Shown: positions 3,847 to 17,666, numbered from the stretch's first letter. The stretch is DNA of 19,446 nucleotides from an uncultured Syntrophomonas sp. (GCA_964647245.1 CAZYJA010000019.1:1-19446), one strand, 5' to 3'. The notes: generated from the sequence alone by a model not told the origin. A program made the numbers and translations.

Positions 3847-3972
3847 AAAAGGGGTTTCAGTTTAAGTCTGAAACCCCTCGGCATTTCGGTTATGGCGAAT
3901 TTTTCTAATCTGATTACTTATTTTAATGAGTTTATCACTACATCTATTTGTCCAGCTAGACTAACATTAAAT
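3847..3972. repeat. Copy A of a ~126-bp repeat. It comprises a hairpin AAGGGGTTTCAG-N7-CTGAAACCCC followed by the last ~17 codons of a paralogous gene.
   Basis: By eye it is about 90% identical to 9487-9612, with roughly 10 mismatches and one 1-nt indel. The hairpin alone recurs at 17776-17809. Confidence 0.8.
3851..3877. terminator. Stem-loop GGGGTTTCAG/CTGAAACCCC with the U-tract on the minus side. It is a convergent terminator for the 2700..3806 gene and for minus-strand transcripts.
   Basis: The stem is a perfect 10 bp. On the minus strand it is followed by TTTTGCTGTTTG. The same hairpin ends the minus-strand genes at 9558 and 17897. Confidence 0.5.
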
Positions 3973-3992: not shown

Positions 3993-4003
3993 CCCACCCT
4001 ATG

Positions 4004-4495
4004 CTACTTGGAAGTTTCTACTTTATGTGCCTTTTTCAGGGCTTCTAAATCTGCCAAATATTCTTTCGATACCTTTTCTGTGTTGGTTAGCTTTCCGTTT
4101 ACCGCTTCTACCATTTTCTCATCACTCTTTTGAGCTGCCTGTAGTAACATATTAAACGCTTCATGTTGTTCAGTTACTAACGCTACATATTTACTGTGTA
4201 CTTTGCGCACTTCTTCGGTGGCAGGAACAATTGCTTTCGTTTTTGTAAGCAGTTCAGTAGAAGCTGGAATAATCACATCTTTTAATCTAGTCGCCAACGT
4301 TGGATCGTCAACAAAATTCTTTCCTGTACTAGCTTCATATTGGGTGGTTACTTTGTTTTCCGCCTCAACAATTGTTGGCAATTGTTTATTTATATAATTA
4401 ATTAAGTCCTCTTGCACTGGATCGGCTTTACCACAACCCGTTAACATTGCCACACACATAACCAATATTGAAATTGTTGTTATAATTTTTTTCAT
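4004..4495 (-). CDS. Small lipoprotein of 163 aa with a coiled-coil or helical C-terminal region. It is paralogous to the C-terminal half of the 4938..5882 product.
   Basis: It has a signal peptide with a lipobox (MLTGC) and an AAAGGGGA ribosome-binding site. Its C-terminal region resembles that of the 314-aa lipoprotein, which may make both YkyA-like. Confidence 0.7.
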   Translation of the reverse strand: MKKIITTISILVMCVAMLTGCGKADPVQEDLINYINKQLPTIVEAENKVTTQYEASTGKNFVDDPTLATRLKDVIIPASTELLTKTKAIVPATEEVRKVHSKYVALVTEQHEAFNMLLQAAQKSDEKMVEAVNGKLTNTEKVSKEYLADLEALKKAHKVETSK

Positions 4496-4547
4496 TATAA
4501 ATAATCCCCTTTACGTCTTTTTTGTTTAAACCATTAAAATGTCACAC

Positions 4548-4700
4548 ACTTCATTAAATCCCTCCTAATTTCATCTTCTTGTAAAGTAATAAACTGAATG
4601 AAGGGTTCCCGCTCATAGCACCAGCCATTTGTATGGTAGTGTATTTGTCAACATTACCTACAAAGGATTGTCCGGCAATTCTTGCCGCCATTTTCTAAAG
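4548..4700 (-). pseudogene. Two collinear fragments of an SPFH/YdjI-like paralog, namely the 3' end plus downstream intergenic region and an internal ~75-bp piece. A deletion of ~315 bp separates them.
   Basis: The stretch 4548-4620 matches 10463-10530. The stretch 4625-4700 matches 10845-10918, which encodes ...MAARIAGQSFVGNV.KYTT.QMA. Confidence 0.55.
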
Positions 4701-4736
4701 TTTAATACAAAAAGAATCACCCGGTACCGCATCTGC

Positions 4737-4766
4737 ATGAAATGTCGTTTTTGCGTTATGAAATGT
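4737..4766 (+). promoter_or_regulatory. LytTR-type direct repeat ATGAAATGT-N12-ATGAAATGT that appears to be an orphan, because its -10 has degenerated.
   Basis: The 9-mers lie at 4737-4745 and 4758-4766 with the same 21-bp periodicity as the cassettes at 7289, 13251 and 15129. Upstream is the conserved AAGTTTAATACAAAAAGAATC element. At the position where the other copies read CTGGTATAAT, this copy reads CTGGTACCGC. Confidence 0.5.
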
Positions 4767-4829
4767 AATTTGTGGCATTTTACGGTAACGGCTCTGGTAC
4801 CGCCACTGATGGCCGGGGACAAAAGCGAG

Positions 4830-4881
4830 ACAGGCCCACTGCTTAGCCGTTGCTTGCTCCTGCAGGGGGCCTGTTCTTTTT
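4830..4881. terminator. Bidirectional intrinsic terminator that probably terminates the 4938..5882 gene.
   Basis: The stem ACAGGCCC...GGGCCTGT is followed by TCTTTTT on the plus side. On the minus side it is followed by CUCGCUUUUG. Confidence 0.55.
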
Positions 4882-4937
4882 GGTATATTGTTTACCGATC
4901 AATAAGTAGATAAATTGGTGTCAGGCACTAGAAACCC

Positions 4938-5882: not shown

Positions 5883-5927
5883 AAAATATTCCTTTCGGGT
5901 TATAGGATAATTTCCTATAGTTAGTGT

Positions 5928-6863
5928 CTATTCTACTGCACTATCCCAAAGAAGTTCTGCAGCTACAAACAGGCCGATATATTCACCCATTTTTTCATCA
6001 GAAATAGTAGCATTTCCTGCATTGACTGCATCTATCATCTCTGCCATGGCCATGAAAGCATCAGTATAGGCAGCCATGGCGAAGGCAATATTCTTATGAG
6101 CCTCCAGGTAGTCGTTCGGTACCATAGGTGCTATTTCTATCATCGCATCAACAGATACAGTTGATGCCGCATATACATTTGCAAAGGCGTCAATCCACTC
6201 TTTCGAACCATCGTAATCTGCAAGCAGCTCATCAGTTGCGGCAATCATTTTTGTGTAATCAGTTACAAGGGGTCCCATAATCTTTTGGTACTGTTCATTT
6301 GTCAGCTTGTTATTGGCTGGAACAGATGTAGAAGGTGCAGCATAAGAAATGGAAGTATCTATACCAACTGTACTGCTGGCTGCATCCCAGGTAACGCCGA
6401 TATCGAAAAGCTGTGCAACATCACGAAGTTTGAAAAAATTGTTGCTGTTGATTGTGTAAGCAGTTAGATTTACTGCGCTTCCGTCCTTATATATTTTAGA
6501 CGTGCTAAGTGTAGCTGACTTTGCCAAGCCGTCACCCTTATTTAGCTCACCACCTACGACAGTATAAGCTCTACTGGAAACAAGGTTAATTGCATTTTTA
6601 GAACCATCCCAAGTAACCTCAAATTGTTTTCCGCTGCCTGATACAACCTTCGCAAGATCACGCAGCTTAAAATAGTTGCTATTTTCAATTGTATATGCAT
6701 CAAACGAAATTACATTTCCATTCACAATGACCTTTGAGGCAGTAGGTGTTGCAGCTTTAGTAGTTGCTGCAAATGCTGGGGTTACAAAAATACTAACCAT
6801 TAATGTTATCATTACAAAAAACGAAAATACTTTAGTGCTCATACTCTTGTTTACAAAACTCAT
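5928..6863 (-). CDS. Secreted 311-aa protein with two tandem copper-amine-oxidase N-terminal-like repeats and a helical C-terminal domain.
   Basis: It has a signal peptide ending AFA and an AAGGAGG ribosome-binding site. Two ~45-aa repeats are present: VIVNGNVISFDAYTIENSNYFKLRDLAKV... and IYKDGSAVNLTAYTINSNNFFKLRDVAQL.... Confidence 0.75.
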   Translation of the reverse strand: MSFVNKSMSTKVFSFFVMITLMVSIFVTPAFAATTKAATPTASKVIVNGNVISFDAYTIENSNYFKLRDLAKVVSGSGKQFEVTWDGSKNAINLVSSRAYTVVGGELNKGDGLAKSATLSTSKIYKDGSAVNLTAYTINSNNFFKLRDVAQLFDIGVTWDAASSTVGIDTSISYAAPSTSVPANNKLTNEQYQKIMGPLVTDYTKMIAATDELLADYDGSKEWIDAFANVYAASTVSVDAMIEIAPMVPNDYLEAHKNIAFAMAAYTDAFMAMAEMIDAVNAGNATISDEKMGEYIGLFVAAELLWDSAVE

Positions 6864-6967
6864 ATTTATTCCTCCTTAAATTTTCAATAGATTTATTAAG
6901 AAATAGCTCCAAGCTCCTCTGTTGCAGTAGTAACTCCTTTCTATTATGTTTTAACAATCGCTCTTAT

Positions 6968-7207
6968 TTATTTATCCATCTCCTTCCCATGGCTTCGGTT
7001 TAGGGGAAACCTGCACACGCTGTGGGTCCGATGCTCACTGATATTTTTCCTGAAATCCGAATGCTTGCAGTACCAGCACTCCCGCATGGGGGCCAGGCTG
7101 TCGCTTGCTGCACATTCCCAGTGAGAGCAGGTATCGTCTTCCCTCACCACTGGATAGGTATCGTCGGTCTTATCCCTGTCCTTTGGCCGCATATTTCCTT
7201 TATCCAA
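6968..7207 (-). CDS. Small hydrophilic Cys-rich protein of 79 aa (TTG start), carrying C-x4-C...C-x2-C motifs and an additional Cys-x-x-x-His motif. It is a paralog of the 12921..13160 ORF.
   Basis: A GGGAAGGAGTGG ribosome-binding site lies 9 nt before the TTG. The ORF is conserved in the second copy, with 65 of 79 residues identical. Its reality is uncertain because the opposite strand also carries an open 74-aa ORF in both copies. Confidence 0.35.
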   Translation of the reverse strand: MDKGNMRPKDRDKTDDTYPVVREDDTCSHWECAASDSLAPMRECWYCKHSDFRKNISEHRTHSVCRFPLNRSHGKEMDK

Positions 7208-7288
7208 CTGCAGCCACTCCTTCCCTGCAAATCCATATACCGTTAATTCTAATATTCAAAAGTTTAATACAAATAGAATCGCCTGGTA

Positions 7289-7366
7289 ATAAATCTGCAC
7301 GAAATGTCGCTTGTGGGTTATGAAATGTAATTTCCAGTAATTTTTTGTAATTCCTGTGGTATAATG
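7289..7366 (+). promoter_or_regulatory. LytTR-box promoter cassette made of ACGAAATGT-N12-ATGAAATGT followed by the extended -10 TGGTATAAT.
   Basis: The 9-mers lie at 7289-7297 and 7310-7318, 21 bp apart. TGGTATAAT lies at 7358-7366. A GAGGTGA ribosome-binding site and the ATG at 7402 follow. Confidence 0.65.
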
Positions 7367-7401
7367 GATGGGATTTGAGGGGATGACTTTGAGGTGACAT
7401 A

Positions 7402-7924
7402 ATGAAAATCGCTATTTGCGATGACGACAAGGGGGACTTTTACATAAAATTATTTTTTTGACTTCATCCTCAATTTGCGGTAGATTCTTATTCTGTGGGT
7501 GCATTTAACTATTATTAAAACCCATTCAAAAAGACCCACTCTTTTCCGTTTTAAAAAAAGCCTGCAAGCATATTTTTTAAGCGGACTGAAGCAATATATC
7601 GTCGTCAAAACGCCCAGCAGCCTTTCTAAGTTCTTCCTCAACGAGCTGATCTAGGTTGAAGTAAGGGGCAGAACCGTGTGCTTTTATCAAAAAGGCGGGA
7701 GCACGTTAGAAAGTACCAGTACGATTTCTCAAGTTGAAGCTGTTTTATTAATCGATAAACGTTTCATTCCGGATCGCTCCGATATCGAAAACCTTGATTA
7801 TATAAAGAGCCTTTCTCATGATGGCCTTACAACCACCAGCAATCGATTTATACCTATATCAAGCAAGGTTTTCAAAAAAGTAAAGCAGTTGTATATCAAT
7901 CATTCCTTTCACGCGGAAGCTTAA
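7402..7924 (+). pseudogene. Disrupted LytTR response regulator.
   Basis: The first 30 nt (MKIAICDDDK) are identical to the intact regulator gene at 13354. Unrelated sequence at 7432-7625 then replaces the receiver domain and hits a stop after 19 codons. From ~7625 the LytTR-domain half resumes in homology with 13785-14082 (FLNELI*VEV...QKGGSTLES...LLIDKRFIP...FIPISSKVFKKVKQLYINH). This half carries an in-frame TAG where the intact copy has TAT. Confidence 0.75.
7468..7496 (+). promoter_or_regulatory. Sigma-A-like promoter TTGACT-17-TAGATT inside the segment that replaced the receiver domain. It could drive the downstream kinase gene.
   Basis: The hexamers and 17-nt spacing were read directly from the sequence. 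No other support exists. Confidence 0.35.
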
Positions 7925-7938
7925 TGGAGGTTAAAATC

Positions 7939-9207
7939 ATGCTGGATTATATTAGGTCTCTGCTTGCCTTTATTTTTGCAATCAGCGTAATGTATATGCT
8001 CTTGGATTGTGAGATCAAGCACCAGAAGAACCGCTATCTATTGGGTTTGTACGTTACTATCCTACTAATCTGTAATGTGCTTGTTTTATATAACTTTGGG
8101 TATATATTCTTCATGAAACTATATCCCCTTCTGGTTCACTTTCCGGTATTCTTGGCCTTTGTTTTTGTATCCCGGTTCAAACCCATCAAGGTCTTTTTTG
8201 TTCTTTGTACACTTATCGCTTTCTCCACGTCGTTTTCTGTGGTTGGACTGATTATTTCATATTTTTTTGGCTCCAGCAGGGAAGTCGTAAACATTGTTTC
8301 CTATATGCTGTTTATACCCACCGGGTTGATCATTTACCAGTATATCCGTCCGTCTTTTCTGTATATGATGCGCAACACCGATAAAGGCTGGTTAGGTTTT
8401 TCCATCGTACCCCTTTCATACTCAGTGCTTATTTATTCTATTGGAATGTATAATTTGGATACAGTGAACATTGGACCTTTATTAAAGAACGCTGTGCTGC
8501 TATTTATTTTGGCTTTTTCAGCTTATTATATGATTATCCGTTTTTTTAAACAGACCCAAGAACAGCTCACCCTGCAAACTGAACAGGATTTGTTGATAAA
8601 GCAAGCTACCGCAGCCCAGCACCAGTTGGCAGCATTGCAAGAATCACAAGAAATGACCATTATTTATCGCCACGATATGCGACACCATCTAAATCTAATC
8701 AGTGCCTATCTTGCAGAAAACAACCCGGCAGCAGCCCAAAACTATATTAACGAAGTTGAAAAAACCATTGCCAGTGCTGTGGTTGAAAAATATTGCAGCA
8801 ACTATACCGTCAATTTAATACTATATTTCTATATTGCGAAGGCCAAGGATGCACTGATTGCAGTTGAAACCCAAATCGATCTCCGGGAGCAAAACCCGGT
8901 ATCCGATATGGACCTTTGCGTTATCTTTGCAAATGCCCTGGAAAATGCGATGAATGCCTGCCAGCGTATTCCTAACGCCAATGATAGATGCTTAAAAATC
9001 TTCTGCCAAACCAAAAGTGATAAGCTCTTCATCCAAATTGCCAATAGCTACACCGGCACGGTCACGTTTGATGACGACATGCCGGTAAGCACGGAAGAAA
9101 ATCACGGCTTGGGCACGAAAAGCATTGCCGCGGTAGCACATAAATACGACGGTTTATTTTCTTTCACGGCCGAAGATGGGATCTTCAAGACCAATATAAT
9201 CCTGTAA
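7939..9207 (+). CDS. HPK10 (AgrC/ComD-like) sensor histidine kinase with a 6-7 TM N-terminal domain and a C-terminal GHKL ATPase.
   Basis: Multiple hydrophobic helices occupy the first ~200 aa. The H-box is YRHDMRHHLN, the N-box is VIFANALENAMNA, and the G-box is GLGTKSI. A GGAGG ribosome-binding site lies 8 nt before the ATG at 7939. The ORF track instead begins at the in-frame ATG at 7924, which overlaps the pseudogene stop. Confidence 0.85.
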   Translation: MLDYIRSLLAFIFAISVMYMLLDCEIKHQKNRYLLGLYVTILLICNVLVLYNFGYIFFMKLYPLLVHFPVFLAFVFVSRFKPIKVFFVLCTLIAFSTSFSVVGLIISYFFGSSREVVNIVSYMLFIPTGLIIYQYIRPSFLYMMRNTDKGWLGFSIVPLSYSVLIYSIGMYNLDTVNIGPLLKNAVLLFILAFSAYYMIIRFFKQTQEQLTLQTEQDLLIKQATAAQHQLAALQESQEMTIIYRHDMRHHLNLISAYLAENNPAAAQNYINEVEKTIASAVVEKYCSNYTVNLILYFYIAKAKDALIAVETQIDLREQNPVSDMDLCVIFANALENAMNACQRIPNANDRCLKIFCQTKSDKLFIQIANSYTGTVTFDDDMPVSTEENHGLGTKSIAAVAHKYDGLFSFTAEDGIFKTNIIL

Positions 9208-9216
9208 TACCTGTAT

Positions 9217-9271
9217 CAAGGGGACGGTTCTTTTGTTACGCTATTTTAAAAGCAATAGAGCCGTCCCCTTG
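9217..9271 (+). terminator. Long GC-clamped hairpin CAAGGGGACGG...CCGTCCCCTTG lying 10 nt after the kinase stop. It has no clear U-tract.
   Basis: An 11-bp outer stem encloses an inner stem CTATT/AATAG. The lack of a trailing T-run makes its role as a terminator uncertain. Confidence 0.3.
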
Positions 9272-9399
9272 CGTCTACTTAGATGTATCATTTTTCGTTA
9301 TGAAATGAACAAATTATTGTTCCTGACTGTAAACCATGCTGATTGAGACTCCTGTGTATCCAAGAAGACCACGCTTGAAAGCAGCATGAAATTACTCAC

Positions 9400-9480
9400 C
9401 CAGATAGAAAGCGGCATACCCGGGTTGAGATATTTATATGGGTTGATATTTCTGATATCCCAGGCAGTTGCAAACATATA
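9400..9480 (-). pseudogene. Fragment resembling the C-terminal end of the 14204..14980 secreted protein.
   Basis: The minus-strand translation FATAWDIRNINPYKYLNPG matches FETACDIRDINPSIYLNAKG in that protein. Nothing upstream of it is homologous. Confidence 0.4.
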
Positions 9481-9486
9481 ATAATA

Positions 9487-9612
9487 AAAGGGGTTTCAGT
9501 TCTAAGTCTGAAACCCCTCGGTATTTCGGTTATAGCGGATTTTTCTAGTCTTATTGCTTATTTTAATGAGTTTATCACTACATCTATTTGGGCAGCTAGA
9601 TCAACATTAAAT
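9487..9612. repeat. Copy B of the ~126-bp repeat. In this copy it forms the genuine 3' end and terminator of the 9558..10397 gene.
   Basis: It matches 3847-3972. The hairpin at 9489-9516 is followed on the minus strand by a T-rich tract. Confidence 0.8.
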
Positions 9613-10397
9613 GATGCTTCAGGGGTAGCGAAAGCGCCAGCATAGATGCCTGCGTCTAATAATTTATAAGCGTAAACAATGACCATCCCGTCTTCCTTGT
9701 AGATAACAACCGCGGTAAAACCTTTAACAAATGTTTTCAACGAGTCTTTATTGGCATACTCCTTCAAGAATTCTTCTGCAAATTCATTAAAATTACTTGC
9801 GTCGGTACCTTCACCTTTGTCAGTTACGCCGACTTGGACTTGACATGATCCCGGGGCAGATATTTTGACTCCTTCAATTACTTCTTCATCAACTACCCAA
9901 TCAGCGGGCAGGACCATCTCAAAAGCTTTATCCAGGCTAAAATATTTTTTCATCGAAATAGCAATTGCCCGGGTAGTCGCTTCATAGTCTACTTTGGCAC
10001 CAAGATTTTCGCTGATGAATCTTAGGGGAACATAGGTGCTTCCATTAATTAATTGAGCCGGCACCTGAACTTCCCTCTGGGTGCCATTAATGACTGCATA
10101 GTTCTGTCCGATTGGTACCTCGATGGTTTGGTCGACCAGTACCACTGTTGCCGTACGCGTATCATTATTCCACAGAACCTCACACCCAAAAGCCTCACTG
10201 ATAAACCTCAGGGGAACCAGGGTTCTTCCCTCAACTACTTGGGCTGGAGCAGACATGGTAACGCTTTGGTCATTAATCTGGGCCTGACTCTCCCCAATCA
10301 CCAGATTAACACTTCTGTCCCTTACTTCAGCACTGGCGGTGCCTGCAAGGATAAGAACCAATGATAAAGTAATTAAAAATAATAATGATTTCTTCAC
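9558..10397 (-). CDS. Secreted 279-aa protein with two copper-amine-oxidase N-terminal-like domains. It uses a GTG start.
   Basis: It has a signal peptide ending ASA. The motifs EGRTLVPLRFISEAFGCEVLW and NGSTYVPLRFISENLGAKVDY are present. An AAAGGGG ribosome-binding site lies 9 nt before the GTG. Confidence 0.75.
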   Translation of the reverse strand: MKKSLLFLITLSLVLILAGTASAEVRDRSVNLVIGESQAQINDQSVTMSAPAQVVEGRTLVPLRFISEAFGCEVLWNNDTRTATVVLVDQTIEVPIGQNYAVINGTQREVQVPAQLINGSTYVPLRFISENLGAKVDYEATTRAIAISMKKYFSLDKAFEMVLPADWVVDEEVIEGVKISAPGSCQVQVGVTDKGEGTDASNFNEFAEEFLKEYANKDSLKTFVKGFTAVVIYKEDGMVIVYAYKLLDAGIYAGAFATPEASFNVDLAAQIDVVINSLK

Positions 10398-10524
10398 TAA
10401 GAATTACCCCTTTCTAATATTTGATTTCACTACATCCTATCCTGGGCTAAATTGTCATACCCTTCATTAAATCCCTCCTAATTTCATCTTCTTGGGAAAA
10501 GACAAACAATATAAAAAGTTCCCG

Positions 10525-11595
10525 CTACACGGTTTGAGTTCCACAATCCGGACAGAATTTACCCGCTACCATTTTGCGGCAGGTGGGACAGAATTGTGGG
10601 GCCCCTGCCGCTTGCTCTGCTCCGACAGCCTGCATAGGTTGGCCACACTCGGGACAAAACTTCATAGGGGTAGTACTGGTATTTCCGCAACCGGTACAGG
10701 CAAAGTTAGCGACTGCTGGCCGCAGTACCGGTGCTCCGGCTCCGCTCATGGCGCCAGCCATCTGCTGTGCCATCTGGGCTCCTATAGCCATTTGCGCTCC
10801 CATGGTTGCTAGGTTATTCCCGCCCCCAGGGGAGTCAAAGCTGTCCGCCATTTGAACGGTAGTGTATTTACCAACATTACCTACAAAGGATTGTCCGGCA
10901 ATTCTTGCCGCCATTTCCTGTACTTCAGCCGGGTAGTTGATGCTATGGATATTTACATCAACCGCACCCAATCCAAAATCCAACAGCTCTTTATCCAATT
11001 CATCATTAATTGCTTTACCCAATTTACGGCTATTCTGCTGCAGGCTAACGAGAGCGTTTATACCAATGCTCTGCTGTCCACCTAAAATAGCTTCTGCAAC
11101 CACCGGGTTCAACTCGCCCATAATACGCTCGGCAATGTCCTCCAGGGAATAGGAATCCTTTATACCTGCAACCTTCTCGATGAACTTTTGATAATCACGA
11201 AATTCCACAATCAGGTTTCCGTTACAACCTACGGGGATTCCCGTCGGTACCTCCGGGGTTGGAATCATAATGCGCTGACGGGTCCCCCATGACAAAAGAA
11301 GTTCCTTGCTGTTCACAAAATAGACCTCCGCCCGCATTCCGGTATCACCTCTGAGGGCAAACACCCCTTTGAGCGTTGATAGAAATGGAACAATCTCGGA
11401 GGCAATATCATAACTGCCCGCTTTTTCAAACACACCCTCGACTTGACCGTTGGCATAGAAAATTGCCTTTTGTCCCATACGAATAATCAGCTTCGCATTT
11501 TTTTTAATTTCTTTGGCAGGCCACTTGAAGAATAACATATCATCCCTGAATTCTTCCCATTCAACCGTATCCTTGCCTTGCCCAAACCATGCCAT
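10525..11595 (-). CDS. SPFH/band-7-like protein of 356 aa with a Gly/Ala/Met-rich linker and C-terminal tandem zinc ribbons. It resembles Bacillus YdjI.
   Basis: The N-terminal ~230 aa are consistent with an SPFH fold. The C-terminus carries CTGCGN...CPECG and CPTC...CPDCG. An AGGGGG ribosome-binding site is present. Confidence 0.7.
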   Translation of the reverse strand: MAWFGQGKDTVEWEEFRDDMLFFKWPAKEIKKNAKLIIRMGQKAIFYANGQVEGVFEKAGSYDIASEIVPFLSTLKGVFALRGDTGMRAEVYFVNSKELLLSWGTRQRIMIPTPEVPTGIPVGCNGNLIVEFRDYQKFIEKVAGIKDSYSLEDIAERIMGELNPVVAEAILGGQQSIGINALVSLQQNSRKLGKAINDELDKELLDFGLGAVDVNIHSINYPAEVQEMAARIAGQSFVGNVGKYTTVQMADSFDSPGGGNNLATMGAQMAIGAQMAQQMAGAMSGAGAPVLRPAVANFACTGCGNTSTTPMKFCPECGQPMQAVGAEQAAGAPQFCPTCRKMVAGKFCPDCGTQTV

Positions 11596-11609
11596 ATAAT
11601 CTCTACCCC

Positions 11610-12695
11610 CTATATAATGGATACCAAGGTAACAAATATTATAATCACCGCCATAATGAAGGTCACGATTTTCGGAATGCTGTAGGGCCGCTGCCCGTCG
11701 ATCACTCCTGTTTCGCCGTTGACGAAGTATTGGTAGGTTTTACCTTTATAGCCATAAGCCGAACCCCATACCGGCAGCAACAGATGCTTATAAGTTACAT
11801 TGGAGTGTATGGTGTCCAGACTGCTCACCCGGGCGGTATTATATCTCCTGCGTATATCTTGATCGGCCAGAGATCGAAGCTCACCCTCCATGATCTGTTT
11901 TGCCGATTCAAAGGCTTGGTCCGCCTTAATTGTATAGAGCTCCGCATGAAAGCCGGACAAATACGATGGGGCATAAGGCCTAGTATTCTCAACCGTATTA
12001 AAGGGCAGTATCCCATTAATATCTTGTTTCTTTTCTGATGCGCACACCTGCAGATCGTCAAAGCTAGAACTCACCACACCTGACACCGGTGTCCAGTCGG
12101 TTACCGTTCTATTTTTTCCGTCCTGGTCCTTTTCCGTGCGATAATTGCCGCCCTGCCCCCGGTAATTTGCAATGGCGGTGGCATCAAACGTCCAGTAGGG
12201 TATATACATTCCCTTTAGCGAACCCTCGACGCACTTCTTCTTAAAGTCATTGGGCGCAAACCATCTTGATTTTACCCACTCTTTAAATTCTTGTCCGGCT
12301 TCAACTTTATCAATCTTGAACGGCACAATCCCCTCCGGTGGAATTCCCCCCTTTTGTTTTACAGTGGCCACCTGAGTTGAGGAACACATTGGGCAGGTGG
12401 TTGCTATCTGTTGCTCATCAAAGGTAATTTCGCACCCGCAGTTTTGGCAATGCACCACTGCCACACCCGCAAACGCTACCGATTCTTTCTCCCGCTCGGA
12501 GTACTGGCTAAAGTCATATTCTGAAACCGTTGCCGCCAGATTCTCTATCAGGCTTTCCGCTTTACAAGATGAACACCGGAATTTCTCTTTACCGATGTCA
12601 TACTTTATAACCCCGCCGCAATTGGCGCAGACAAAAGTTTGGGTATCAACCGCGACCTTTACCGGAACCTCACTAATTTCGGTCTGTTTATCCAT
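11610..12695 (-). CDS. Zinc-ribbon protein with a C-terminal TM anchor, resembling Bacillus YdjG. It lies upstream of and co-oriented with the SPFH gene.
   Basis: Two CxxC...CxxC ribbons are present (CANCGG...CSSC and CQNCGC...CPMC), along with a C-terminal hydrophobic helix IVTFIMAVIIIFVTLVSII. The likely start is the second ATG at 12695 (MDKQTEI), which has a GAGGAG ribosome-binding site. The ORF track starts at 12707. Confidence 0.65.
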   Translation of the reverse strand: MDKQTEISEVPVKVAVDTQTFVCANCGGVIKYDIGKEKFRCSSCKAESLIENLAATVSEYDFSQYSEREKESVAFAGVAVVHCQNCGCEITFDEQQIATTCPMCSSTQVATVKQKGGIPPEGIVPFKIDKVEAGQEFKEWVKSRWFAPNDFKKKCVEGSLKGMYIPYWTFDATAIANYRGQGGNYRTEKDQDGKNRTVTDWTPVSGVVSSSFDDLQVCASEKKQDINGILPFNTVENTRPYAPSYLSGFHAELYTIKADQAFESAKQIMEGELRSLADQDIRRRYNTARVSSLDTIHSNVTYKHLLLPVWGSAYGYKGKTYQYFVNGETGVIDGQRPYSIPKIVTFIMAVIIIFVTLVSII

Positions 12696-12839
12696 GTTAC
12701 TCCTCATTTCATGTGCATAATATTCCTGGAAATATGCGGGTAGAACCCATTTAAACTACCATAATTTGCATCTCGAAGAGGCTTATTCCATACCCGCAGT
12801 AATTATAACCCAAAAAACTCCTGCAAAATGCACCTTTGT

Positions 12840-12869
12840 ATGAGATGTAGTTTGTGCGTCCTGAAATGA
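12840..12869 (+). promoter_or_regulatory. Degenerate LytTR-like direct repeat ATGAGATGT-N12-CTGAAATGA with 21-bp periodicity.
   Basis: It is oriented rightward, toward the 12921-13200 small-ORF region, and would be antisense to the minus-strand 79-aa ORF. No convincing -10 follows it. Confidence 0.35.
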
Positions 12870-12920
12870 AAGTTCTCGTCTTTGAGGTGCACTGCTTGGT
12901 AACTGATATTACTTTCAGAT

Positions 12921-13160
12921 TTATTTATCCTTCTCCTTCCCCCCGATTCGGTTTAACGGACACCTGCATACGCTGTGGGTCCGATGCTGGCTAATCTCTT
13001 TGCGAAAATCTGCATATTTGCAGTACCAGCACTCCCGCATGGGGACCAGGCTGTCACCTGCTGCACATGCCCAATGAGAGCAGGTATCGTCCTCTCTCAC
13101 TATTCTATAGGTATCGTCGGTCCCATCCCGGTCCTTTGGCCGCATATTTCCTTTATCCAA
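12921..13160 (-). CDS. Small hydrophilic Cys-rich protein of 79 aa (TTG start), paralogous to 6968..7207.
   Basis: It has the same GGGAAGGAGTGGCTGCAGTTG start context as the first copy. The Cys positions are conserved (C27, C32, C45, C48, C65) and there is an extra Cys at position 67. Confidence 0.35.
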   Translation of the reverse strand: MDKGNMRPKDRDGTDDTYRIVREDDTCSHWACAAGDSLVPMRECWYCKYADFRKEISQHRTHSVCRCPLNRIGGKEKDK

Positions 13161-13250
13161 CTGCAGCCACTCCTTCCCTTCAAGTCCATATTCCGTTAAC
13201 TCTAATAGTTAAATTTTATAACAAATGAAACCGCCCGGTGATATATCTGC

Positions 13251-13318
13251 ATGAAATGTCGTCCTGGGGTTATGAAATGTAAATTTCCATTATTTATTCG
13301 TAATTGCTCTGGTATAAT
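13251..13318 (+). promoter_or_regulatory. LytTR-box promoter cassette in front of the intact response regulator. It consists of ATGAAATGT-N12-ATGAAATGT followed by TGGTATAAT.
   Basis: The 9-mers lie at 13251-13259 and 13272-13280. TGGTATAAT lies at 13310-13318. A GAGGTGA ribosome-binding site and the ATG at 13354 follow. The arrangement suggests autoregulation. Confidence 0.7.
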
Positions 13319-13353
13319 AGATAGGATTTGAGGGATGACTTTGAGGTGACATA

Positions 13354-14082
13354 ATGAAAATCGCTATTTGCGATGACGACAAGCCGGAACTGTTACGCAT
13401 CAGTCGGCTGGCACATGAATATTTGAGCTCCGGCTTTACCGAAAGCCTACCGGAAATCCACAGCTTTGAAAGCAGTCTGAAGTTGCTCGAACAGCTGGAA
13501 AGCGGCATACATTTTGATCTTTTTCTTTTGGATGTCATAATGCCTAACCTAAACGGCATCCAGCTGGCCAACGAGATAAGAAAAATGGATGAGGTAGCCA
13601 AAATTATATTTTTGACTTCAAGCTCGGAATTTGCGGTAGAGTCTTATTCAGTGGGCGCTTTTAATTATCTTATAAAGCCTATTCAAAGACCCCAACTCTT
13701 CTCTGTTTTAGAAAAAGCCGGCAACGATATTATAAGTGACCTGAAACAATTTATCGTGGTTAAAACCCCCAGCACCTTGTCCAAGGTATTCCTCCACGAG
13801 CTGATCTATGTTGAGGTGATTGGCAGAACCGTATGTTTTCATCAAAAAGGCGGGGCTAGGGTGGAAAGCATCATTACGATTTCTCAAGTTAAAGCTGCTT
13901 TATTAATAGATAAACGTTTTATCCAGCCTCATCGCTCCTATATCGTCAACTTAGACTATGTCCAAAAACTATCCCCGGATGGCTTTACAACGAAAGACGG
14001 CCAGTTTATTCCCATATCAAGAAATGTTTTCAAAGAAGTAAAACAGGCCTATATCAATCATTGCTTTCGGTCGGAAGGTTAA
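13354..14082 (+). CDS. LytTR-family response regulator (AgrA/ComE-like) of 242 aa.
   Basis: An N-terminal receiver domain is present (MKIAICDDD...DVIMP...IIFLTS). A C-terminal LytTR DNA-binding domain is present (VKT.S....F..ELIYVE......VCFHQKGG...I...RS.IVN). Confidence 0.9.
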   Translation: MKIAICDDDKPELLRISRLAHEYLSSGFTESLPEIHSFESSLKLLEQLESGIHFDLFLLDVIMPNLNGIQLANEIRKMDEVAKIIFLTSSSEFAVESYSVGAFNYLIKPIQRPQLFSVLEKAGNDIISDLKQFIVVKTPSTLSKVFLHELIYVEVIGRTVCFHQKGGARVESIITISQVKAALLIDKRFIQPHRSYIVNLDYVQKLSPDGFTTKDGQFIPISRNVFKEVKQAYINHCFRSEG

Positions 14083-14153
14083 TAGGATGGCAAAAAAAAT
14101 ATCCTGTATAAATCTGGTGCAAAGGGTGCTCCTGAAGGTAACGCTAAATAAGT

Positions 14154-14188
14154 AAAAAAGCCGATTGCAACAACCATCGGCTTTTTTA
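14154..14188. terminator. Bidirectional intrinsic terminator between the response regulator and the convergent 14204..14980 gene.
   Basis: An A6 tract precedes the stem GCCGATTG...CCATCGGC, and a T6 tract follows it. Confidence 0.6.
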
Positions 14189-14203
14189 CTTAACGGGGGT
14201 AAA

Positions 14204-14980
14204 TTACCCTTTAGCGTTGAGATATATACTGGGATTGATATCTCTGATATCGCAGGCGGTTTCAAACAAGCTTATATTTACTTGATTTCTAAAATAGGTT
14301 GACATTTGATGATTTAAGTCTTGCTTCAGTCTATCCAAATCAGGATCTGCATAGCCATCCACCAATTCCCACCAGCGTGCAATTAACGATACAACCTTAT
14401 CCTGCTCCGTATCGGTTAAATCCAACCAGCTTTGAGTCCTAAATCTTAAAACATAACTGATTTCTTCGTTGGTGATCGGTATCGTTTCGCCTATGCCTTC
14501 GCCAATTTGATTATTTATATAAGCAGGAGAGAAAAGATATACATCACCATTGTCAACATTATAGTCAACCTTATAACCAATAGCCTCGGAAATAAATCTT
14601 AACGGAACCAAGGTCCGGCCATTAATAATTACGGGAGGAGAGTCCAGCTCATACTCGATCCCAACTCGGTCATTAAGCATGGCATCAAATTTGGAATAGT
14701 TGGCTGTCTTATTTCCGATTTGCATTTCAATAATAAGCCCATTGCTGGCAGGGTCGTAAATTTCAACCTGTTGTTGATCAGCTATCCATTCAACCCGGCA
14801 GCCAACCATTTCAGCAATCGCCCTAACTGGAACCATGGTTCTTTGGTTAATAATCTGTGGTGCAACTTCGGTCTTTACTTCCTCCAAGTCAACCAAAATC
14901 TGGGCGGCCAAGCTTGGGCTGGCGAAACAAAAAGTCAGAACCCATACCAGAGTTACCATAAGTATTGCTTTCTTGCTCAT
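14204..14980 (-). CDS. Secreted 258-aa protein with two copper-amine-oxidase N-terminal-like domains.
   Basis: It has a signal peptide ending LAAQ. The motifs NQRTMVPVRAIAEMVGCRVEW and NGRTLVPLRFISEAIGYKVDY are present. A GGAGGAGG ribosome-binding site is present. Confidence 0.75.
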   Translation of the reverse strand: MSKKAILMVTLVWVLTFCFASPSLAAQILVDLEEVKTEVAPQIINQRTMVPVRAIAEMVGCRVEWIADQQQVEIYDPASNGLIIEMQIGNKTANYSKFDAMLNDRVGIEYELDSPPVIINGRTLVPLRFISEAIGYKVDYNVDNGDVYLFSPAYINNQIGEGIGETIPITNEEISYVLRFRTQSWLDLTDTEQDKVVSLIARWWELVDGYADPDLDRLKQDLNHQMSTYFRNQVNISLFETACDIRDINPSIYLNAKG

Positions 14981-15128
14981 ATTCCTACCTCCTCCAATTA
15001 TTTTTTATTACTTCCCAGGACCAACCTGGTCAAGTGGATGCTTTTATTGATCGGTATGGTTATTTGCATACTCGCTAATTCTATTCGTCTAAGTTTAGTA
15101 CAAAAAGAATCCTGTGGTTACTCATTTG

Positions 15129-15190
15129 CATGAAATGTCGTTTTTACGTCATGAAGTGTATTATAGGTGCTTTTAAGGCTCTGCTATAAT
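15129..15190 (+). promoter_or_regulatory. LytTR-box promoter cassette in front of the protease gene. It consists of ATGAAATGT-N12-ATGAAGTGT followed by TATAAT.
   Basis: The 9-mers lie at 15129-15137 and 15150-15158. TATAAT lies at 15185-15190. Upstream is the conserved element AAGTTTAGTACAAAAAGAATC. An AAAGGAGG ribosome-binding site precedes the ATG at 15279. Confidence 0.65.
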
Positions 15191-15278
15191 TTATATTGCA
15201 TACAGGCTAATCTTCGGATGTTTCCCCAGAAGTACGGTATTAATTAGTTTGCAAAATGAAAGTTAAAAGGAGGAAAAA

Positions 15279-17666
15279 ATGAAAAAAAGTATTTCGATTA
15301 TGGTTTTAGTGTTATCCCTTTTTTTCGCCGGTAGCTGCGCGTATGCTGCTGAGGGTGGCGTATATCTGGAAGAAGCGCAAGCGCTTAAGCAGATGGGTTT
15401 ATTTAGGGGCTCCGACCAGGGCTTTGAGCTGGAAAGAGCACCCTCCCGAGTTGAGGCGGCAGTTATGCTGATCAGAATTCTCGGCCAGGAAGAAATTGCG
15501 CTGTCAGCTCATTATTCCCACCCATTCAATGATGTACCCGCCTGGGCCAATGATTATATCGGTTATATGTATGAAAGTAATTTATCCAAGGGTATTTCCG
15601 CCACCGAATTTGGCTCCGCCCAGCTAACCTCTGCTAATCAATATGCTACCTATATTCTGCGAGCATTAGGTTACAGCGATCAGGAAGGCGATTTCATATG
15701 GAGCGAAGCCCTAAATAAATCCCTGTCCATAGGCTTTCTTACCGAAACTGATCTAGCTAATCTAAATCAAGCCAATAAATTATTTGTGAGAGATGATATG
15801 GTGCACCTATCCTATACCGCTCTGGCCAATAAATTAAAAGGCCAGACGATTACCCTACAGGATAAGCTGGCTCAGGAAGGGGTGTTTGATAAAGCCGCCT
15901 ATACCATCATGATGTATTTAAATGGATCTGATTTAGAGAGTCTAAATGGTATGGCAACCTCCGATTTGAATGAAATTCTGGGCGCGGATTTCTCCCATCA
16001 GGATATAAATATGATTATTCAAACTGGCGGCACTGCCCAGTGGCAGAATAATGTAATTCCAGCCCACCAGCTCGCTCGCTGGGCAGTAACTGACAATGGC
16101 TTGGAGCTATTGCAGGAATTACCTCTGGCCAGCATTGGTGATAGTAAAACCTTAACTGATTTTATCGACTTTGCCATTAATAATTACCCCGCTCAAAAGT
16201 ATGGGCTGATTTTCTGGAACCATGGAGGAGGATCAGTATCTGGCTATGGAGTAGATGAACTATTTAATTATGATGGCTTAAGCTTAAAGGAACTAGATAT
16301 TGCGTTTGAAAACTCGCGGCTAAATACTAACCAGCTGGAATTTTTGGGATTCGATGCCTGCTTAATGGGGAATTTGGAAACCGCCAATATCGCCAAAGAT
16401 TACGCCAGCTACCTGATAGCCTCGGAGGAACTTGAGCCGGGCTATGGTTGGGATTATGATTATTTTCTTACCCGGCTGGGCCGTAATCCTGGCATGGATG
16501 GTAAAGAACTAGGGGCAAACATTGTGGATGGCTTCATCTCTTTTTATCAAAACAATGGCATGGCCGATGAAGCAACTACCCTTTCGGTTATCGATTTAAA
16601 AAAGGTACCGGCAGTAGTAAATGCTCTGGAAAGCTTTATTGATGTGGTTGATATCTCGGCAGCAAATTTCGCCACCTTATCTAAACCAAGGTCGAAGACC
16701 AAGGAATTTGGTATGCCCTCGGCCCATGGTGGCTGTACCGATATGGTTGACATGGTGGACTTAGCGAAACAATTCCAAAGTGTTATTCCGGCACCGTCAG
16801 CTAATTTGGTTAAGGCTATAAACGAGGCCGTCATATACAACCGCATGGGAGATTATGTTGACAAAGCCGGCGGGCTTTCTATGTACTTCCCCTACTCAGC
16901 CAAGGATGAAGTGGGGGATCGTATTCCAGTTTATCAAACAACCGGATTTTCTCCTAAATATATTGATTATGTAACCGAATATGCTAATCTGCTAACCGGC
17001 ACTAGCTTAATATCTTTTGATTTGTCTTCTGATATGCCGGAACAATCGGACGAGAGCTTTAGCATATCATTGTCTCAGGAAGAGCTGGATAACATTGGTC
17101 AAATCAATTTTACTGCCTGGGTTAAGGATGATGAGAACTTCTATACCCAGATTTTACAGGACAGCTATGTGGAAATCGATGAATATGGCACGATAGTAAC
17201 CGAGTTTAACGGTCAGATCACCACCATTAATGGAGAATGGGCTTGTCTTTATGAACTTGATCGCGGTGAAGATTATGTCCGCTATGGGGTGCCCGCCTAT
17301 TTGAATGACGCAGAAGTAAATATCGTACTGCTCTATGATAATGAAAATCCAAACGGCCTGATCGTCGGTGCTATGCCGGTCTATGATGAAATAACCGGAA
17401 TGGCTCCCAAGAGCATGATTGATTTCCAGACCGGGGACCGCATTACGATGCTTTATTACACCAGTAAATTCGTGGATGTGAATGATGACACTGAAGCCAC
17501 TGAGGAAGACTTTTATTGGTATGAAGGAAACACCTTTACCCTAGGTGAAGAACTAACCTTGGAAACCTGGGAGGTTGAGGATGGAACCTATCTATACGGG
17601 TTTACAGTTGTAGATTTGCAGGGCAATGAATATTATACCGATTTTATTGAGGTAGCTTACGAATAA
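15279..17666 (+). CDS. Secreted clostripain-family (C11) cysteine peptidase of 795 aa with up to three N-terminal SLH (S-layer homology) repeats.
   Basis: A signal peptide is present. Three ~55-aa SLH-like repeats occupy residues ~25-190. The catalytic His lies in LIFWNHGGGSVSGYG and the catalytic Cys lies in LGFDACLMGNLE. A long beta-rich C-terminal region follows. Confidence 0.8.
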   Translation: MKKSISIMVLVLSLFFAGSCAYAAEGGVYLEEAQALKQMGLFRGSDQGFELERAPSRVEAAVMLIRILGQEEIALSAHYSHPFNDVPAWANDYIGYMYESNLSKGISATEFGSAQLTSANQYATYILRALGYSDQEGDFIWSEALNKSLSIGFLTETDLANLNQANKLFVRDDMVHLSYTALANKLKGQTITLQDKLAQEGVFDKAAYTIMMYLNGSDLESLNGMATSDLNEILGADFSHQDINMIIQTGGTAQWQNNVIPAHQLARWAVTDNGLELLQELPLASIGDSKTLTDFIDFAINNYPAQKYGLIFWNHGGGSVSGYGVDELFNYDGLSLKELDIAFENSRLNTNQLEFLGFDACLMGNLETANIAKDYASYLIASEELEPGYGWDYDYFLTRLGRNPGMDGKELGANIVDGFISFYQNNGMADEATTLSVIDLKKVPAVVNALESFIDVVDISAANFATLSKPRSKTKEFGMPSAHGGCTDMVDMVDLAKQFQSVIPAPSANLVKAINEAVIYNRMGDYVDKAGGLSMYFPYSAKDEVGDRIPVYQTTGFSPKYIDYVTEYANLLTGTSLISFDLSSDMPEQSDESFSISLSQEELDNIGQINFTAWVKDDENFYTQILQDSYVEIDEYGTIVTEFNGQITTINGEWACLYELDRGEDYVRYGVPAYLNDAEVNIVLLYDNENPNGLIVGAMPVYDEITGMAPKSMIDFQTGDRITMLYYTSKFVDVNDDTEATEEDFYWYEGNTFTLGEELTLETWEVEDGTYLYGFTVVDLQGNEYYTDFIEVAYE

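What the first reader, a model, noticed from the sequence alone, without database searches (positions are those of the whole stretch)
6968..14082. Agr-like LytTR/HPK10 two-component system split across two reciprocally decayed duplicate modules
Module 1 (6968-9207) contains a small Cys-rich ORF, a LytTR-box promoter, a response-regulator pseudogene and an intact AgrC-type kinase. In the pseudogene the receiver domain has been replaced, and the LytTR half carries an in-frame TAG. Module 2 (12921-14082) contains the paralogous small ORF, the same promoter cassette and an intact LytTR regulator, but no kinase. The two modules share an identical 30-nt start to the regulator gene and an ~85% identical divergent region.

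The only complete kinase and regulator pair is therefore encoded in trans, 4 kb apart. That looks like a snapshot of subfunctionalisation or decay after a segmental duplication. Alternatively the kinase may now be expressed from the inserted TTGACT-17-TAGATT promoter at 7468.
Basis: partly seen in the sequence, partly recalled or inferred. Interest (0 to 1): 0.7.

Follow-up and report, generated by a model that had tools for sequence, protein, structure and literature searches.

The report
Split LytTR kinase–regulator pair, reciprocal loss
Two old copies of a bacterial sensor-kinase/regulator gene pair each lost the opposite partner, leaving one kinase and one regulator 4 kb apart under the same type of promoter; regulator loss turns out to be common in this gene family, so the case is instructive but not extraordinary.

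Summary
Window 6966-7936 and 12919-14095 are paralogous (77-86% nt). HMMs confirm an AgrC/ComD-type GHKL kinase (7939-9207, 422 aa) and a receiver+LytTR regulator (13354-14082).

Two details are wrong. The module-1 receiver was not replaced. It carries a 202-nt internal deletion (codons ~13-80, including the phospho-acceptor Asp60), four more indels and a TAG at 7652-7654. The "inserted" TTGACT-17-TAGATT is ancestral regulator coding sequence.

Module 2 carries a kinase-deletion scar: only the kinase's last codons and its downstream terminator survive at 14101-14190. The loss is therefore reciprocal.

The copies are old paralogues, not a fresh duplication (dS ~0.6). Module 1 is orthologous to an intact metagenomic module (L089, 86% nt). 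The RR2 body is closest to another species' regulator.

Both survivors keep a conserved LytTR-box promoter (ATGAAATGT-N12-ATGAAATGT plus TGnTATAAT). It occurs four times in the window, once before a C11 peptidase gene.

Among about 39 orthologous kinases from other species, about 21 lack the adjacent upstream regulator. At least 10 of those keep the promoter and regulator vestiges with different breakpoints, implying about six independent losses.

Most likely the kinase signals in trans to the surviving regulator. This is not an agr quorum-sensing locus, because agrB and agrD are absent.

The parts
3847..3972 (.). Hairpin terminator plus 3' gene fragment. Left boundary of duplication unit A.
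   Evidence: 91% identical to 9486-9612. A third hairpin copy lies at 17768-17810.
4004..4495 (-). 163-aa lipoprotein gene (weak EMYY-lipoprotein similarity). It is the last gene of the small-ORF operon in relatives.
   Evidence: NCBIfam lipo_EMYY at 8e-07, below the cutoff. The same 163-aa gene sits in L002 and L003.
4535..4696 (-). Remnants of an SPFH gene 3' end and its downstream spacer.
   Evidence: 4535-4613 matches 10448-10526 (81%). 4624-4696 matches 10847-10919 (93%).
4690..4799 (+). LytTR-box cassette copy 1 (repeats at 4739-4766). Its rightward -10 is lost.
   Evidence: Homology ends at 'ctctggta|ccgcc', where the other copies read TGGTATAAT.
6968..7207 (-). Small Cys/His-rich protein gene, copy 1 (79 aa from TTG, or 74 aa from ATG 7192).
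   Evidence: Coding frame supported. dN/dS is 0.25 against copy 2. Homologues P0001-P0010 share invariant C27, H29, C44, C47, H59 and C65.
7252..7365 (+). LytTR-box cassette copy 2. ATGAAATGT repeats at 7299-7307 and 7320-7328, extended -10 TGGTATAAT at 7357-7365.
   Evidence: Conserved across species.
7402..7924 (+). Response-regulator pseudogene. It has a 202-nt deletion after 7439, indels at 7471, 7515, 7573 and 7768, and a TAG at 7652-7654. Translation from the ATG stops after 19 codons.
   Evidence: The 82-aa residual ORF (7676-7924) has no Pfam match. The HRSYIVN motif has changed to DRSDIEN.
7939..9207 (+). Intact AgrC/ComD-type histidine kinase, 422 aa, with its own RBS (GGAGG at 7926-7930).
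   Evidence: HATPase_c_5 at 3.9e-20. All invariant family columns are present. 85% aa identity to L089 with dN/dS 0.20. Hydrophobic N-terminal 204 aa.
9296..9476 (.). Scrap of a third module: promoter half-site, a receiver fragment (9364-9419) and a fragment of the 3' end of a Cu_amine_oxidN1 gene (9424-9476).
   Evidence: 9364-9419 matches 13453-13510 (78%). 9424-9476 matches 14216-14268 (83%).
9487..9521 (-). Hairpin terminator. Boundary between duplication units A and B.
10525..12707 (-). Zn-ribbon membrane protein (11610-12707) and SPFH/Band_7_1 + double-zinc-ribbon protein (10525-11595), downstream of small ORF copy 2.
   Evidence: Pfam. The same gene pair (361 and 358 aa) is in L002.
12921..13160 (-). 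Small Cys/His-rich protein gene, copy 2.
13204..13318 (+). LytTR-box cassette copy 3 (repeats at 13253-13280, TATAAT at 13313-13318).
13354..14082 (+). Intact LytTR response regulator RR2 (242 aa). D8, D9, D60, T87 and K108 are present.
   Evidence: Pfam. Full-length match to ComE 4cbv at 2.4e-06. Residue check.
14083..14190 (+). Kinase-deletion scar: RBS remnant TAATAGGA, then the last kinase codons ATCCTGTA at 14101-14108, then the kinase-downstream spacer and a bidirectional terminator (14154-14187).
   Evidence: Aligns to L004 8620-8730, which is the kinase end 'ATTATCCTGTAA' plus terminator.
15083..15192 (+). LytTR-box cassette copy 4 (repeats at 15132-15159, TGCTATAAT at 15182-15190).
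15279..17666 (+). Clostripain-family (C11) peptidase gene downstream of cassette 4. Candidate regulon member.
   Evidence: Peptidase_C11 at 2.3e-45.

Best explanation
The contig carries two substantial copies and one scrap of a module that is conserved in Clostridia. The module is a small Cys-rich protein gene, then divergently a LytTR-box promoter, a LytTR response regulator and an AgrC/ComD-type kinase. The copies lie in an imperfect ~6-kb tandem duplication (3847-9486 and 9487-~15190).

Shown:
- In copy 1 the regulator gene is dead. A 202-nt deletion removes the phospho-acceptor region, and frameshifts and a stop codon follow. The kinase is intact.
- In copy 2 the regulator is intact and the kinase was deleted almost exactly. 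Its last codons and its terminator remain as a scar.
- Both survivors keep the same activator-type promoter: two 9-bp ATGAAATGT repeats 21 bp apart, then TGnTATAAT.
- The copies are old paralogues whose left ends were homogenised. The pseudogenisation is recent.
- Regulator loss with promoter retention has happened repeatedly and independently in this kinase family.

Inferred:
- The kinase phosphorylates RR2 in trans.
- Phosphorylated RR2 binds the repeats at its own promoter (13253), at the pseudogene-kinase promoter (7301), at the C11 peptidase promoter (15132) and at the orphan cassette at 4739. Positive feedback on both partners is therefore kept although they are on separate transcripts.
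- The kinase is transcribed by read-through from the promoter at 7360 across the ~540-nt dead leader, and is translated from its own RBS.
For: Anatomy:
- Alignments and self-BLAST define the paralogous segments.
- Domain assignments come from Pfam and the full-length ComE match.

Promoter:
- The repeat is enriched, 5 matches against 0.28 expected.
- The cassette is conserved across six loci from different sources.
- The 9-bp repeat / 12-bp spacer layout equals the ComE site layout (PMC4005675).
- No plus-strand terminator-like site lies between 7366 and 7939.

Survivors are under constraint:
- Kinase dN/dS is 0.20 against L089.
- The kinase has all invariant family residues.
- RR2 keeps D8, D9, D60, T87 and K108.

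Cross-pairing is plausible:
- The kinase DHp region is 84-86% identical between the window kinase and the kinases of L018 and L004.
- L018's regulator is the closest relative of RR2. The sensor domains of these kinases are only 55-61% identical to the window's.

Age and polarity:
- dS is 0.61 between the two regulator copies, and 0.41-0.43 between module 1 and L089.
- All five indels and the TAG are unique to the window.

Recurrence:
- 18 of about 39 orthologous kinases have an intact adjacent regulator.
- About 21 lack it, and at least 10 of those keep vestiges with different breakpoints.
- On the kinase tree the window and L004 each sit inside regulator-intact clades.
- L004 and L002, parts of one contig, show the same split: a kinase-only unit, a regulator-only unit and an RR(1-40)::HK(356-422) scrap.
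Against: - The window is a whole 19.4-kb contig of an unidentified assembly. The rest of the genome is unseen, so other kinases or regulators of this family may exist and be the real partners.
- No expression or phosphotransfer data exist.
- A ~540-nt mostly untranslated leader could reduce kinase expression through polarity.
- RR2 comes from a paralogous module, and its alpha-1 helix differs at several positions from the regulator orthologous to the dead copy. Insulation between the modules cannot be excluded.
- Leftward (small-ORF) promoter activity of the cassette is a guess. The consensus scan did not call a minus-strand promoter there.
Confidence: 0.6

Rival explanations
1. The two survivors are not partners. 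Each works with a kinase or regulator encoded elsewhere in the genome, for example in a many-kinases-to-one-regulator network, and their nearness here is incidental.
For: Related genomes hold several paralogous kinases and regulators within a few kb. D. lacus L007 has two kinases without a regulator and a distant regulator. L040 and L074 are two kinases on one contig. L014 and L025 have a different regulator downstream of the kinase. The contig is only 19.4 kb.
Against: Both genes keep the same promoter cassette, and the DHp interface is nearly invariant across the family. No other partner lies within the 19.4 kb.
Confidence: 0.22
2. The whole system is being lost. The kinase and RR2 are the last intact pieces of a decaying, non-functional island.
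For: The region is littered with scraps: a third-module remnant at 9296-9476, an SPFH fragment, a dead cassette at 4739 and a gene fragment at 3886-3972.
Against: The kinase and RR2 have no lesions and show dN/dS of 0.20-0.27 against orthologues. Kinase-only units with a retained promoter persist across whole clades, such as Desulfosporosinus, which argues for function.
Confidence: 0.1
3. The kinase is now driven by a sigma-70-like promoter TTGACT-17-TAGATT inside the pseudogene (7458-7486).
For: The motif exists as a 9/12 match. The 2-nt deletion at 7471 changed the hexamer spacing from 19 nt (module 2) to 17 nt.
Against: It is not an insertion. It is ancestral coding sequence, also present in RR2 and L089. 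Promoter-like matches in the region are not above chance, 5 against 7.8 expected. The strong conserved cassette promoter lies 100 nt upstream with no terminator in between.
Confidence: 0.06
4. The pseudogene and the missing kinase are sequencing or assembly artefacts.
For: One indel (+2 at 7573) lies in a T-run. The source assembly could not be identified.
Against: There are six separate lesions, including a 202-nt deletion and a substitution that creates TAG. The copies are only 77-86% identical, so they would not be collapsed or chimerised. Similar architectures recur in independent assemblies.
Confidence: 0.02

Closest known systems
ComD/ComE (Streptococcus pneumoniae) and AgrC/AgrA (Staphylococcus aureus) LytTR two-component systems
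   Same: - The kinase has a polytopic membrane sensor plus a GHKL domain of Pfam HATPase_c_5.
- The regulator has receiver + LytTR architecture, with a full-length match to ComE 4cbv.
- The promoter is autoregulated and has two 9-bp direct repeats separated by 12 bp (PMC4005675).
   Different: - There is no peptide-pheromone gene and no AgrB or ComAB-type processing or export gene.
- The sensor domain is conserved between species (up to 92% identity) rather than hypervariable.
- The regulator and kinase are not co-transcribed here.
- The kinase has no significant sequence match to any solved structure.
Orphan histidine kinases generated by lineage-specific expansion (Alm et al. 2006, PMC1630713)
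   Same: Duplicated kinases end up without an adjacent cognate regulator. Numbers of orphan kinases and orphan regulators co-vary across genomes.
   Different: Here the mechanism is visible. Whole-module duplication is followed by deletion of the regulator gene, leaving vestiges and the intact autoregulatory promoter. In this window the complementary kinase deletion sits in the sister module.
Canonical orthologous modules L089 (Ga0351930_1112), L005/L047 (uncultured Syntrophomonas MAG CAZEDT010000035.1) and L003
   Same: They have the same small Cys-rich ORF, the same cassette, a 242-aa regulator and a 422-aa kinase. L089 is 86% nt identical to window 7446-9210.
   Different: In those loci the regulator is intact and directly precedes the kinase. 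The window lacks 202 nt (L089 module positions 507-706) and has additional frameshifts and a stop.

Membership tests
AgrC/ComD-type (HATPase_c_5, HPK10-like) sensor histidine kinase | C-terminal GHKL ATPase domain of the HATPase_c_5 type | tested here: met
   PF14501 at 3.9e-20, 72 bits against a cutoff of 22, residues 327-427.
AgrC/ComD-type (HATPase_c_5, HPK10-like) sensor histidine kinase | Conserved H-box histidine in a dimerisation helix, plus N and G boxes | tested here: met
   RHDMRHHL, N332/E335/N336 and G390/G392 are invariant columns in 35 orthologues and are present in the window protein. There is a weak SPOB_a match at residues 247-282.
AgrC/ComD-type (HATPase_c_5, HPK10-like) sensor histidine kinase | Polytopic N-terminal membrane sensor (5-7 TM helices) | tested here: inconclusive
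   A Kyte-Doolittle scan shows several hydrophobic segments within residues 4-204. No dedicated topology predictor was run.
LytTR (AgrA/ComE/AlgR) response regulators | N-terminal receiver with phospho-acceptor Asp, plus C-terminal LytTR DNA-binding domain | tested here: met
   RR2 matches PF00072 at 5.9e-17 and PF04397 at 6.7e-12. D8, D9, D60, T87 and K108 are present. ComE 4cbv aligns over residues 2-227. The module-1 copy fails: the receiver core is deleted and the residual ORF has no Pfam match.
LytTR (AgrA/ComE/AlgR) response regulators | Target promoters with paired 9-bp direct repeats about 12 bp apart, next to a weak -35 | tested here: met
   ATGAAATGT-N12-ATGAAATGT occurs 4 times exactly or near-exactly, 5 matches against 0.28 expected. 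It lies 31 nt upstream of TGnTATAAT and is conserved across species. Binding itself was not tested.
agr-type peptide quorum-sensing locus (agrBDCA) | AgrB peptidase and AgrD autoinducer-peptide precursor genes next to the kinase and regulator | tested here: not met
   No AgrB or AgrD family appeared among the 19 ORFs scanned, which include all long non-overlapping ORFs. Related loci also lack them. Very small ORFs were not scanned exhaustively.
agr-type peptide quorum-sensing locus (agrBDCA) | Hypervariable sensor domain that defines specificity groups | tested here: not met
   Sensor residues 1-200 are 78-92% identical among L089, L003 and L005. A second sensor type at 50-61% identity exists, but each type is conserved across taxa.

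The most novel reading that the evidence does not exclude
This kinase family follows a repeated evolutionary path.
- Whole autoregulated regulator-kinase modules duplicate, and the copies differ in sensor type.
- The redundant regulator gene is then deleted again and again while the LytTR-box promoter is kept.
- The result is promoter-kinase units wired in trans to one surviving regulator through an almost invariant DHp interface, that is, many sensors feeding one regulator.

The window would be the youngest known stage of this path, and the only one seen here that also carries the complementary kinase deletion as a scar. The repeated 110-nt promoter cassette may itself be the substrate for the recombination and gene conversion that drives these rearrangements.
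Probability: 0.4. Interest if true: 0.55.

Novelty: new member of a known kind. Interest (0 to 1): 0.4.

Why it matters
The window gives a dated, base-level view of how 'orphan' kinases and regulators arise. A whole module is duplicated and complementary deletions follow. The cis-regulatory cassette outlives the coding partner. Because roughly six independent regulator losses occur in the same family, the process looks directional rather than accidental. That makes a concrete hypothesis testable: a trans pair that shares positive feedback, and several sensors converging on one regulator. For genome annotation, it warns that kinase-only and regulator-only LytTR units in Clostridia may be halves of one working system. 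It also warns that 'AgrC'-style names given to these proteins do not imply peptide quorum sensing.

Tried and rejected
- Structure of the small Cys-rich protein: AlphaFold2 on an 11-sequence alignment gave mean pLDDT 44.6 and pTM 0.21. That is too poor for a fold search, so none was run. Pfam and NCBIfam found nothing for it.
- Solved-structure searches with the kinase, both as a single sequence and as a profile of 35 sequences, gave no significant match.
- Identifying the source organism failed. The exact-sequence look-up gave no accession. The encoding-contig look-up found no record. The genome is not among the GTDB species representatives. A second kinase or regulator elsewhere in the genome therefore could not be checked.
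- A functional short protein from 7402-7924 was rejected. Translation from the ATG ends after 19 codons. The 82-aa GTG ORF has no Pfam match and a destroyed HRSYIVN motif.
- The plus-strand ORFs that overlap the small gene (7022-7246 and 12975-13199) were rejected on substitution pattern.
- A leftward sigma-70 promoter in the conserved left half of the cassette was not called by the consensus scan. It is kept only as a guess.
- A literature search found no description of this family or of recurrent regulator deletion in LytTR systems.

Full report

Yes, in the main. A pairwise alignment, the repeat finder and a self-BLAST show two paralogous stretches:
- 6966-7443 matches 12919-13396 at 85.7% (E 3e-135).
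- 7446-7936 matches 13600-14095 at 76.9% (E 8e-104).

A 52-nt stretch (7380-7431 = 13332-13383) is identical. It covers the ribosome-binding site and the first 30 nt of the regulator gene.

- The kinase matches Pfam HATPase_c_5 at 3.9e-20.
- The module-2 protein matches Response_reg at 5.9e-17 and LytTR at 6.7e-12.
- The module-2 protein also aligns over its whole length with ComE, PDB 4cbv.

The true kinase start is ATG 7939, preceded by GGAGG at 7926-7930. This gives the 422 aa that all orthologues have.

The small Cys-rich ORF on the minus strand is the real reading frame:
- It shows 12 synonymous and 14 non-synonymous codon differences between the copies. The overlapping plus-strand ORF shows 3 and 19.
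- Its dN/dS is 0.25.
- It belongs to a small conserved family of 10 clusters with invariant C27, H29, C44, C47, H59 and C65.

**2.

The receiver domain of the module-1 regulator was not replaced. Module 1 lacks 202 nt, corresponding to module-2 13392-13593. These are codons ~13-80 and include the phospho-acceptor Asp60.

Downstream of the deletion the rest of the receiver, the linker and the LytTR domain are all still aligned. This part carries further lesions:
- a 2-nt deletion at 7471;
- a 1-nt deletion at 7515;
- a 2-nt insertion at 7573;
- a TAG at 7652-7654;
- a 3-nt deletion at 7768.

The LytTR motif HRSYIVN, which is invariant in ten orthologous regulators, reads DRSDIEN in the pseudogene. 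Translation from the retained ATG stops after 19 codons. The residual 82-aa ORF (7676-7924) has no Pfam match.

The 'inserted' TTGACT-17-TAGATT lies at 7458-7486. It is the old coding sequence for FLTSSSEFAV. The same bases occur in RR2 and in the orthologue L089. Promoter-like matches in the region are not more frequent than in shuffled sequence.

**3. Module 2 did lose a kinase**

Directly after the RR2 stop codon comes TAATAGGA, a remnant of the kinase ribosome-binding site. About 15 nt further on comes ATCCTGTA (14101-14108).

From there the sequence aligns with a related contig, L004. In L004 the same bases are the last kinase codons (ATT ATC CTG TAA). They are followed by a spacer, a hairpin terminator and the 3' end of a Cu_amine_oxidN1 gene. 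The kinase ORF was therefore removed almost exactly, and the loss is reciprocal.

A third, heavily deleted module copy lies at 9296-9476. It consists of a promoter half-site, a receiver fragment similar to 13453-13510, and a fragment similar to 14216-14268.

All copies sit in an imperfect, colinear ~6-kb tandem duplication (3847-9486 and 9487-~15190). Its unit boundaries carry the same hairpin.

**4. Age and origin**

The two regulator bodies are not each other's closest relatives:

| Comparison | nt identity |
|---|---|
| RR2 vs L018 regulator | 85% |
| RR2 vs module-1 pseudogene | 77.7% |
| Window 7446-9210 (pseudogene + kinase) vs L089, an intact metagenomic module | 86% |

The 200 nt missing from the window correspond to L089 module positions 507-706.

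Synonymous divergence gives the same picture:
- dS is 0.61 between the two window regulator copies.
- dS is 0.41-0.43 between module 1 and L089.

The pseudogene's dN/dS against L089 (0.29) is hardly higher than that of RR2 against L089 (0.27). All six lesions are unique to the window. Inactivation is therefore recent relative to those divergences.

The left part (small ORF, intergenic cassette and first ~42 nt of the regulator) behaves differently. It is more similar within the genome (85.5%) than to any other locus (72-80%). This points to gene conversion, with a breakpoint close to where the 202-nt deletion starts.

So these are old paralogous modules with recent complementary losses. They are not a snapshot taken just after a duplication.

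**5. The promoter cassette**

The intergenic region holds two ATGAAATGT repeats 21 bp apart, followed 31 nt later by TGnTATAAT.
- The repeat pattern occurs at 4739, 7301, 13253 and 15132, with a weak copy at 12842. That is 5 matches against 0.28 expected.
- It is embedded in a ~110-nt cassette family.
- It is conserved in loci from other sources.
- The layout equals the ComE binding-site layout of 9-bp repeats and a 12-bp spacer (PMC4005675).

Cassette 4 precedes a clostripain-family C11 peptidase gene. Cassette 1 has lost its -10 element.

No plus-strand terminator-like site lies between 7366 and the kinase start.

**6. Comparative survey**

Contexts of homologues show the canonical arrangement: small ORF, then divergently the regulator (242 aa) followed by the kinase (422 aa). 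This is seen in L003, L005/L047, L018 and L089.

I scanned one genome per species with a kinase profile and classified the upstream regions:
- 18 of about 39 orthologous kinases (at least 50% identity) have an intact regulator directly upstream.
- About 21 do not.
- At least 10 of those 21 keep the cassette promoter plus recognisable vestiges of the regulator gene.

The vestiges have different breakpoints, given here as nt retained at the 5' / 3' end of the regulator gene:

| Locus or group | 5' / 3' nt retained |
|---|---|
| L004 | 24 / 110 |
| Three Desulfosporosinus genomes (L010, L012, L015) | ~70 / 15 |
| Natronincola (L013) | 24 / 50 |
| L028, L029 | 0 / 115-150 |
| L035 | 75 / 35 |
| L038 | 75 + a middle piece + 3' end |
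| L014, L019, L020, L021 | ~11 / 10 |

On a neighbour-joining kinase tree the window sits in a clade whose other members all have intact regulators. L004 does likewise in another clade. I read about six independent losses from this tree. This is a rough parsimony reading of a distance tree, not a formal reconstruction.

The contig that yields L002 and L004 shows the same split as the window. It has a kinase-only unit, a regulator-only unit with the small ORF, and an RR(1-40)::HK(356-422) deletion scrap. Two metagenomic loci, L090 and L092, add further regulator-less units next to the small ORF.

**7. How it most likely works**

Shown: one intact kinase and one intact regulator, each behind the same activator-type promoter. 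Both are under purifying selection. Kinase dN/dS is 0.20, all invariant kinase residues are present, and the regulator's active-site residues are present.

Inferred:
- The kinase phosphorylates RR2 in trans.
- Phosphorylated RR2 activates its own promoter, the pseudogene-kinase promoter and the peptidase promoter.
- The positive feedback loop is therefore kept on two transcripts.

Cross-pairing is plausible because the DHp region is 84-86% identical between the window kinase and the kinases of L018 and L004. L018's regulator is the closest relative of RR2. The sensor domains of those kinases are only 55-61% identical to the window's. The family thus has at least two sensor types on a nearly invariant transmitter.

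The stimulus is unknown. No AgrB or AgrD is present and the sensor is conserved across taxa, so a strain-specific peptide pheromone is unlikely.

The neighbouring genes encode lipoproteins, Cu_amine_oxidN1 wall-associated proteins, a Zn-ribbon/SPFH pair and a secreted peptidase. From my own knowledge of the B. subtilis pspA-ydjGHI operon (PMC8581546), this suggests a cell-envelope role. Homology to that operon was not tested beyond the Pfam Band_7_1 match.

**8. Comparison with what is known**

The components belong to the AgrC/ComD kinase family and the AgrA/ComE LytTR regulator family. The locus is not an agr-type quorum-sensing locus.

Orphan kinases as a product of lineage-specific expansion are established (Alm et al. 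2006, PMC1630713). What this window adds is the footprint of the mechanism and its recurrence in one family. My literature search found no description of this family or of recurrent regulator deletion in LytTR systems.

**9. Limits**

- The window is a complete 19,446-nt contig. Its assembly could not be identified, so partners elsewhere in the genome cannot be excluded.
- The tree is a distance tree.
- The breakpoints of the very short vestiges were read by eye.
- No binding, expression or phosphotransfer evidence exists.

**10. Verdict**

This is a real and well-documented case of reciprocal loss in paralogous LytTR two-component modules. I rate it a new member of a known kind, of moderate interest.

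Noticed in passing
window 7939-8540 (kinase residues 1-200), compared with L018, L004, L026, L030 and L024: The kinase family has two sensor-domain types. Identity is 78-92% within a type and 50-61% between types. The DHp and catalytic domains stay 70-86% identical across both types.
   Followed up: partly
window 3840-3882, 9480-9522, 17768-17810: Three copies of the hairpin AAGGGGTTTCAG...CTGAAACCCCT. Two of them have about 90 nt of shared flank that is the 3' end of a Cu_amine_oxidN1 gene. The copy at 3886-3972 is a gene fragment.
   Followed up: partly
window 15083-17666: A fourth LytTR-box cassette with TGCTATAAT lies in front of a 795-aa clostripain-family (C11) peptidase gene, which is a candidate regulon member.
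   Followed up: partly
window 4690-4799: An orphan cassette keeps both LytTR repeats and the conserved left half but has lost the rightward -10. It is fused directly to an SPFH gene fragment (4624-4696) upstream of the 163-aa lipoprotein gene. It might still act leftward.
   Followed up: no
window 7246-7298 and the homologous parts of all cassettes: The left half of the cassette (AAGTTTAATACAAAAAGAATC..CC.GGTAA) is as conserved across species as the LytTR repeats. It could be a divergent promoter for the small-ORF operon or a further binding site.
   Followed up: no
window 10525-12707: A Zn-ribbon membrane protein (365 aa) and an SPFH/Band_7_1 + double zinc-ribbon protein (356 aa) lie downstream of small ORF copy 2. 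The pair recurs in L002. It recalls B. subtilis YdjG/YdjI of the PspA membrane-stress operon, but that link is from memory only.
   Followed up: no
L095-L120 (metagenome loci): Distant relatives (37-48% identity) of the small Cys-rich protein occur in soil metagenome contigs, mostly without a LytTR regulator or this kinase nearby. The small protein is therefore not strictly tied to the two-component module.
   Followed up: no
L024, L028, L030, L036: Modules 55-65% (protein) and 72-80% (nt) identical to the window occur in MAGs labelled Solirubrobacterales, Calditrichales, Pirellulales and Lutibacter. This means either horizontal transfer of the module or mis-binned Firmicutes contigs.
   Followed up: no
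L004 8120-8200: A tandem GATTCTGAT repeat (4-5 units) sits between the frameshifted small ORF and the cassette of the RR::HK deletion remnant.
   Followed up: no
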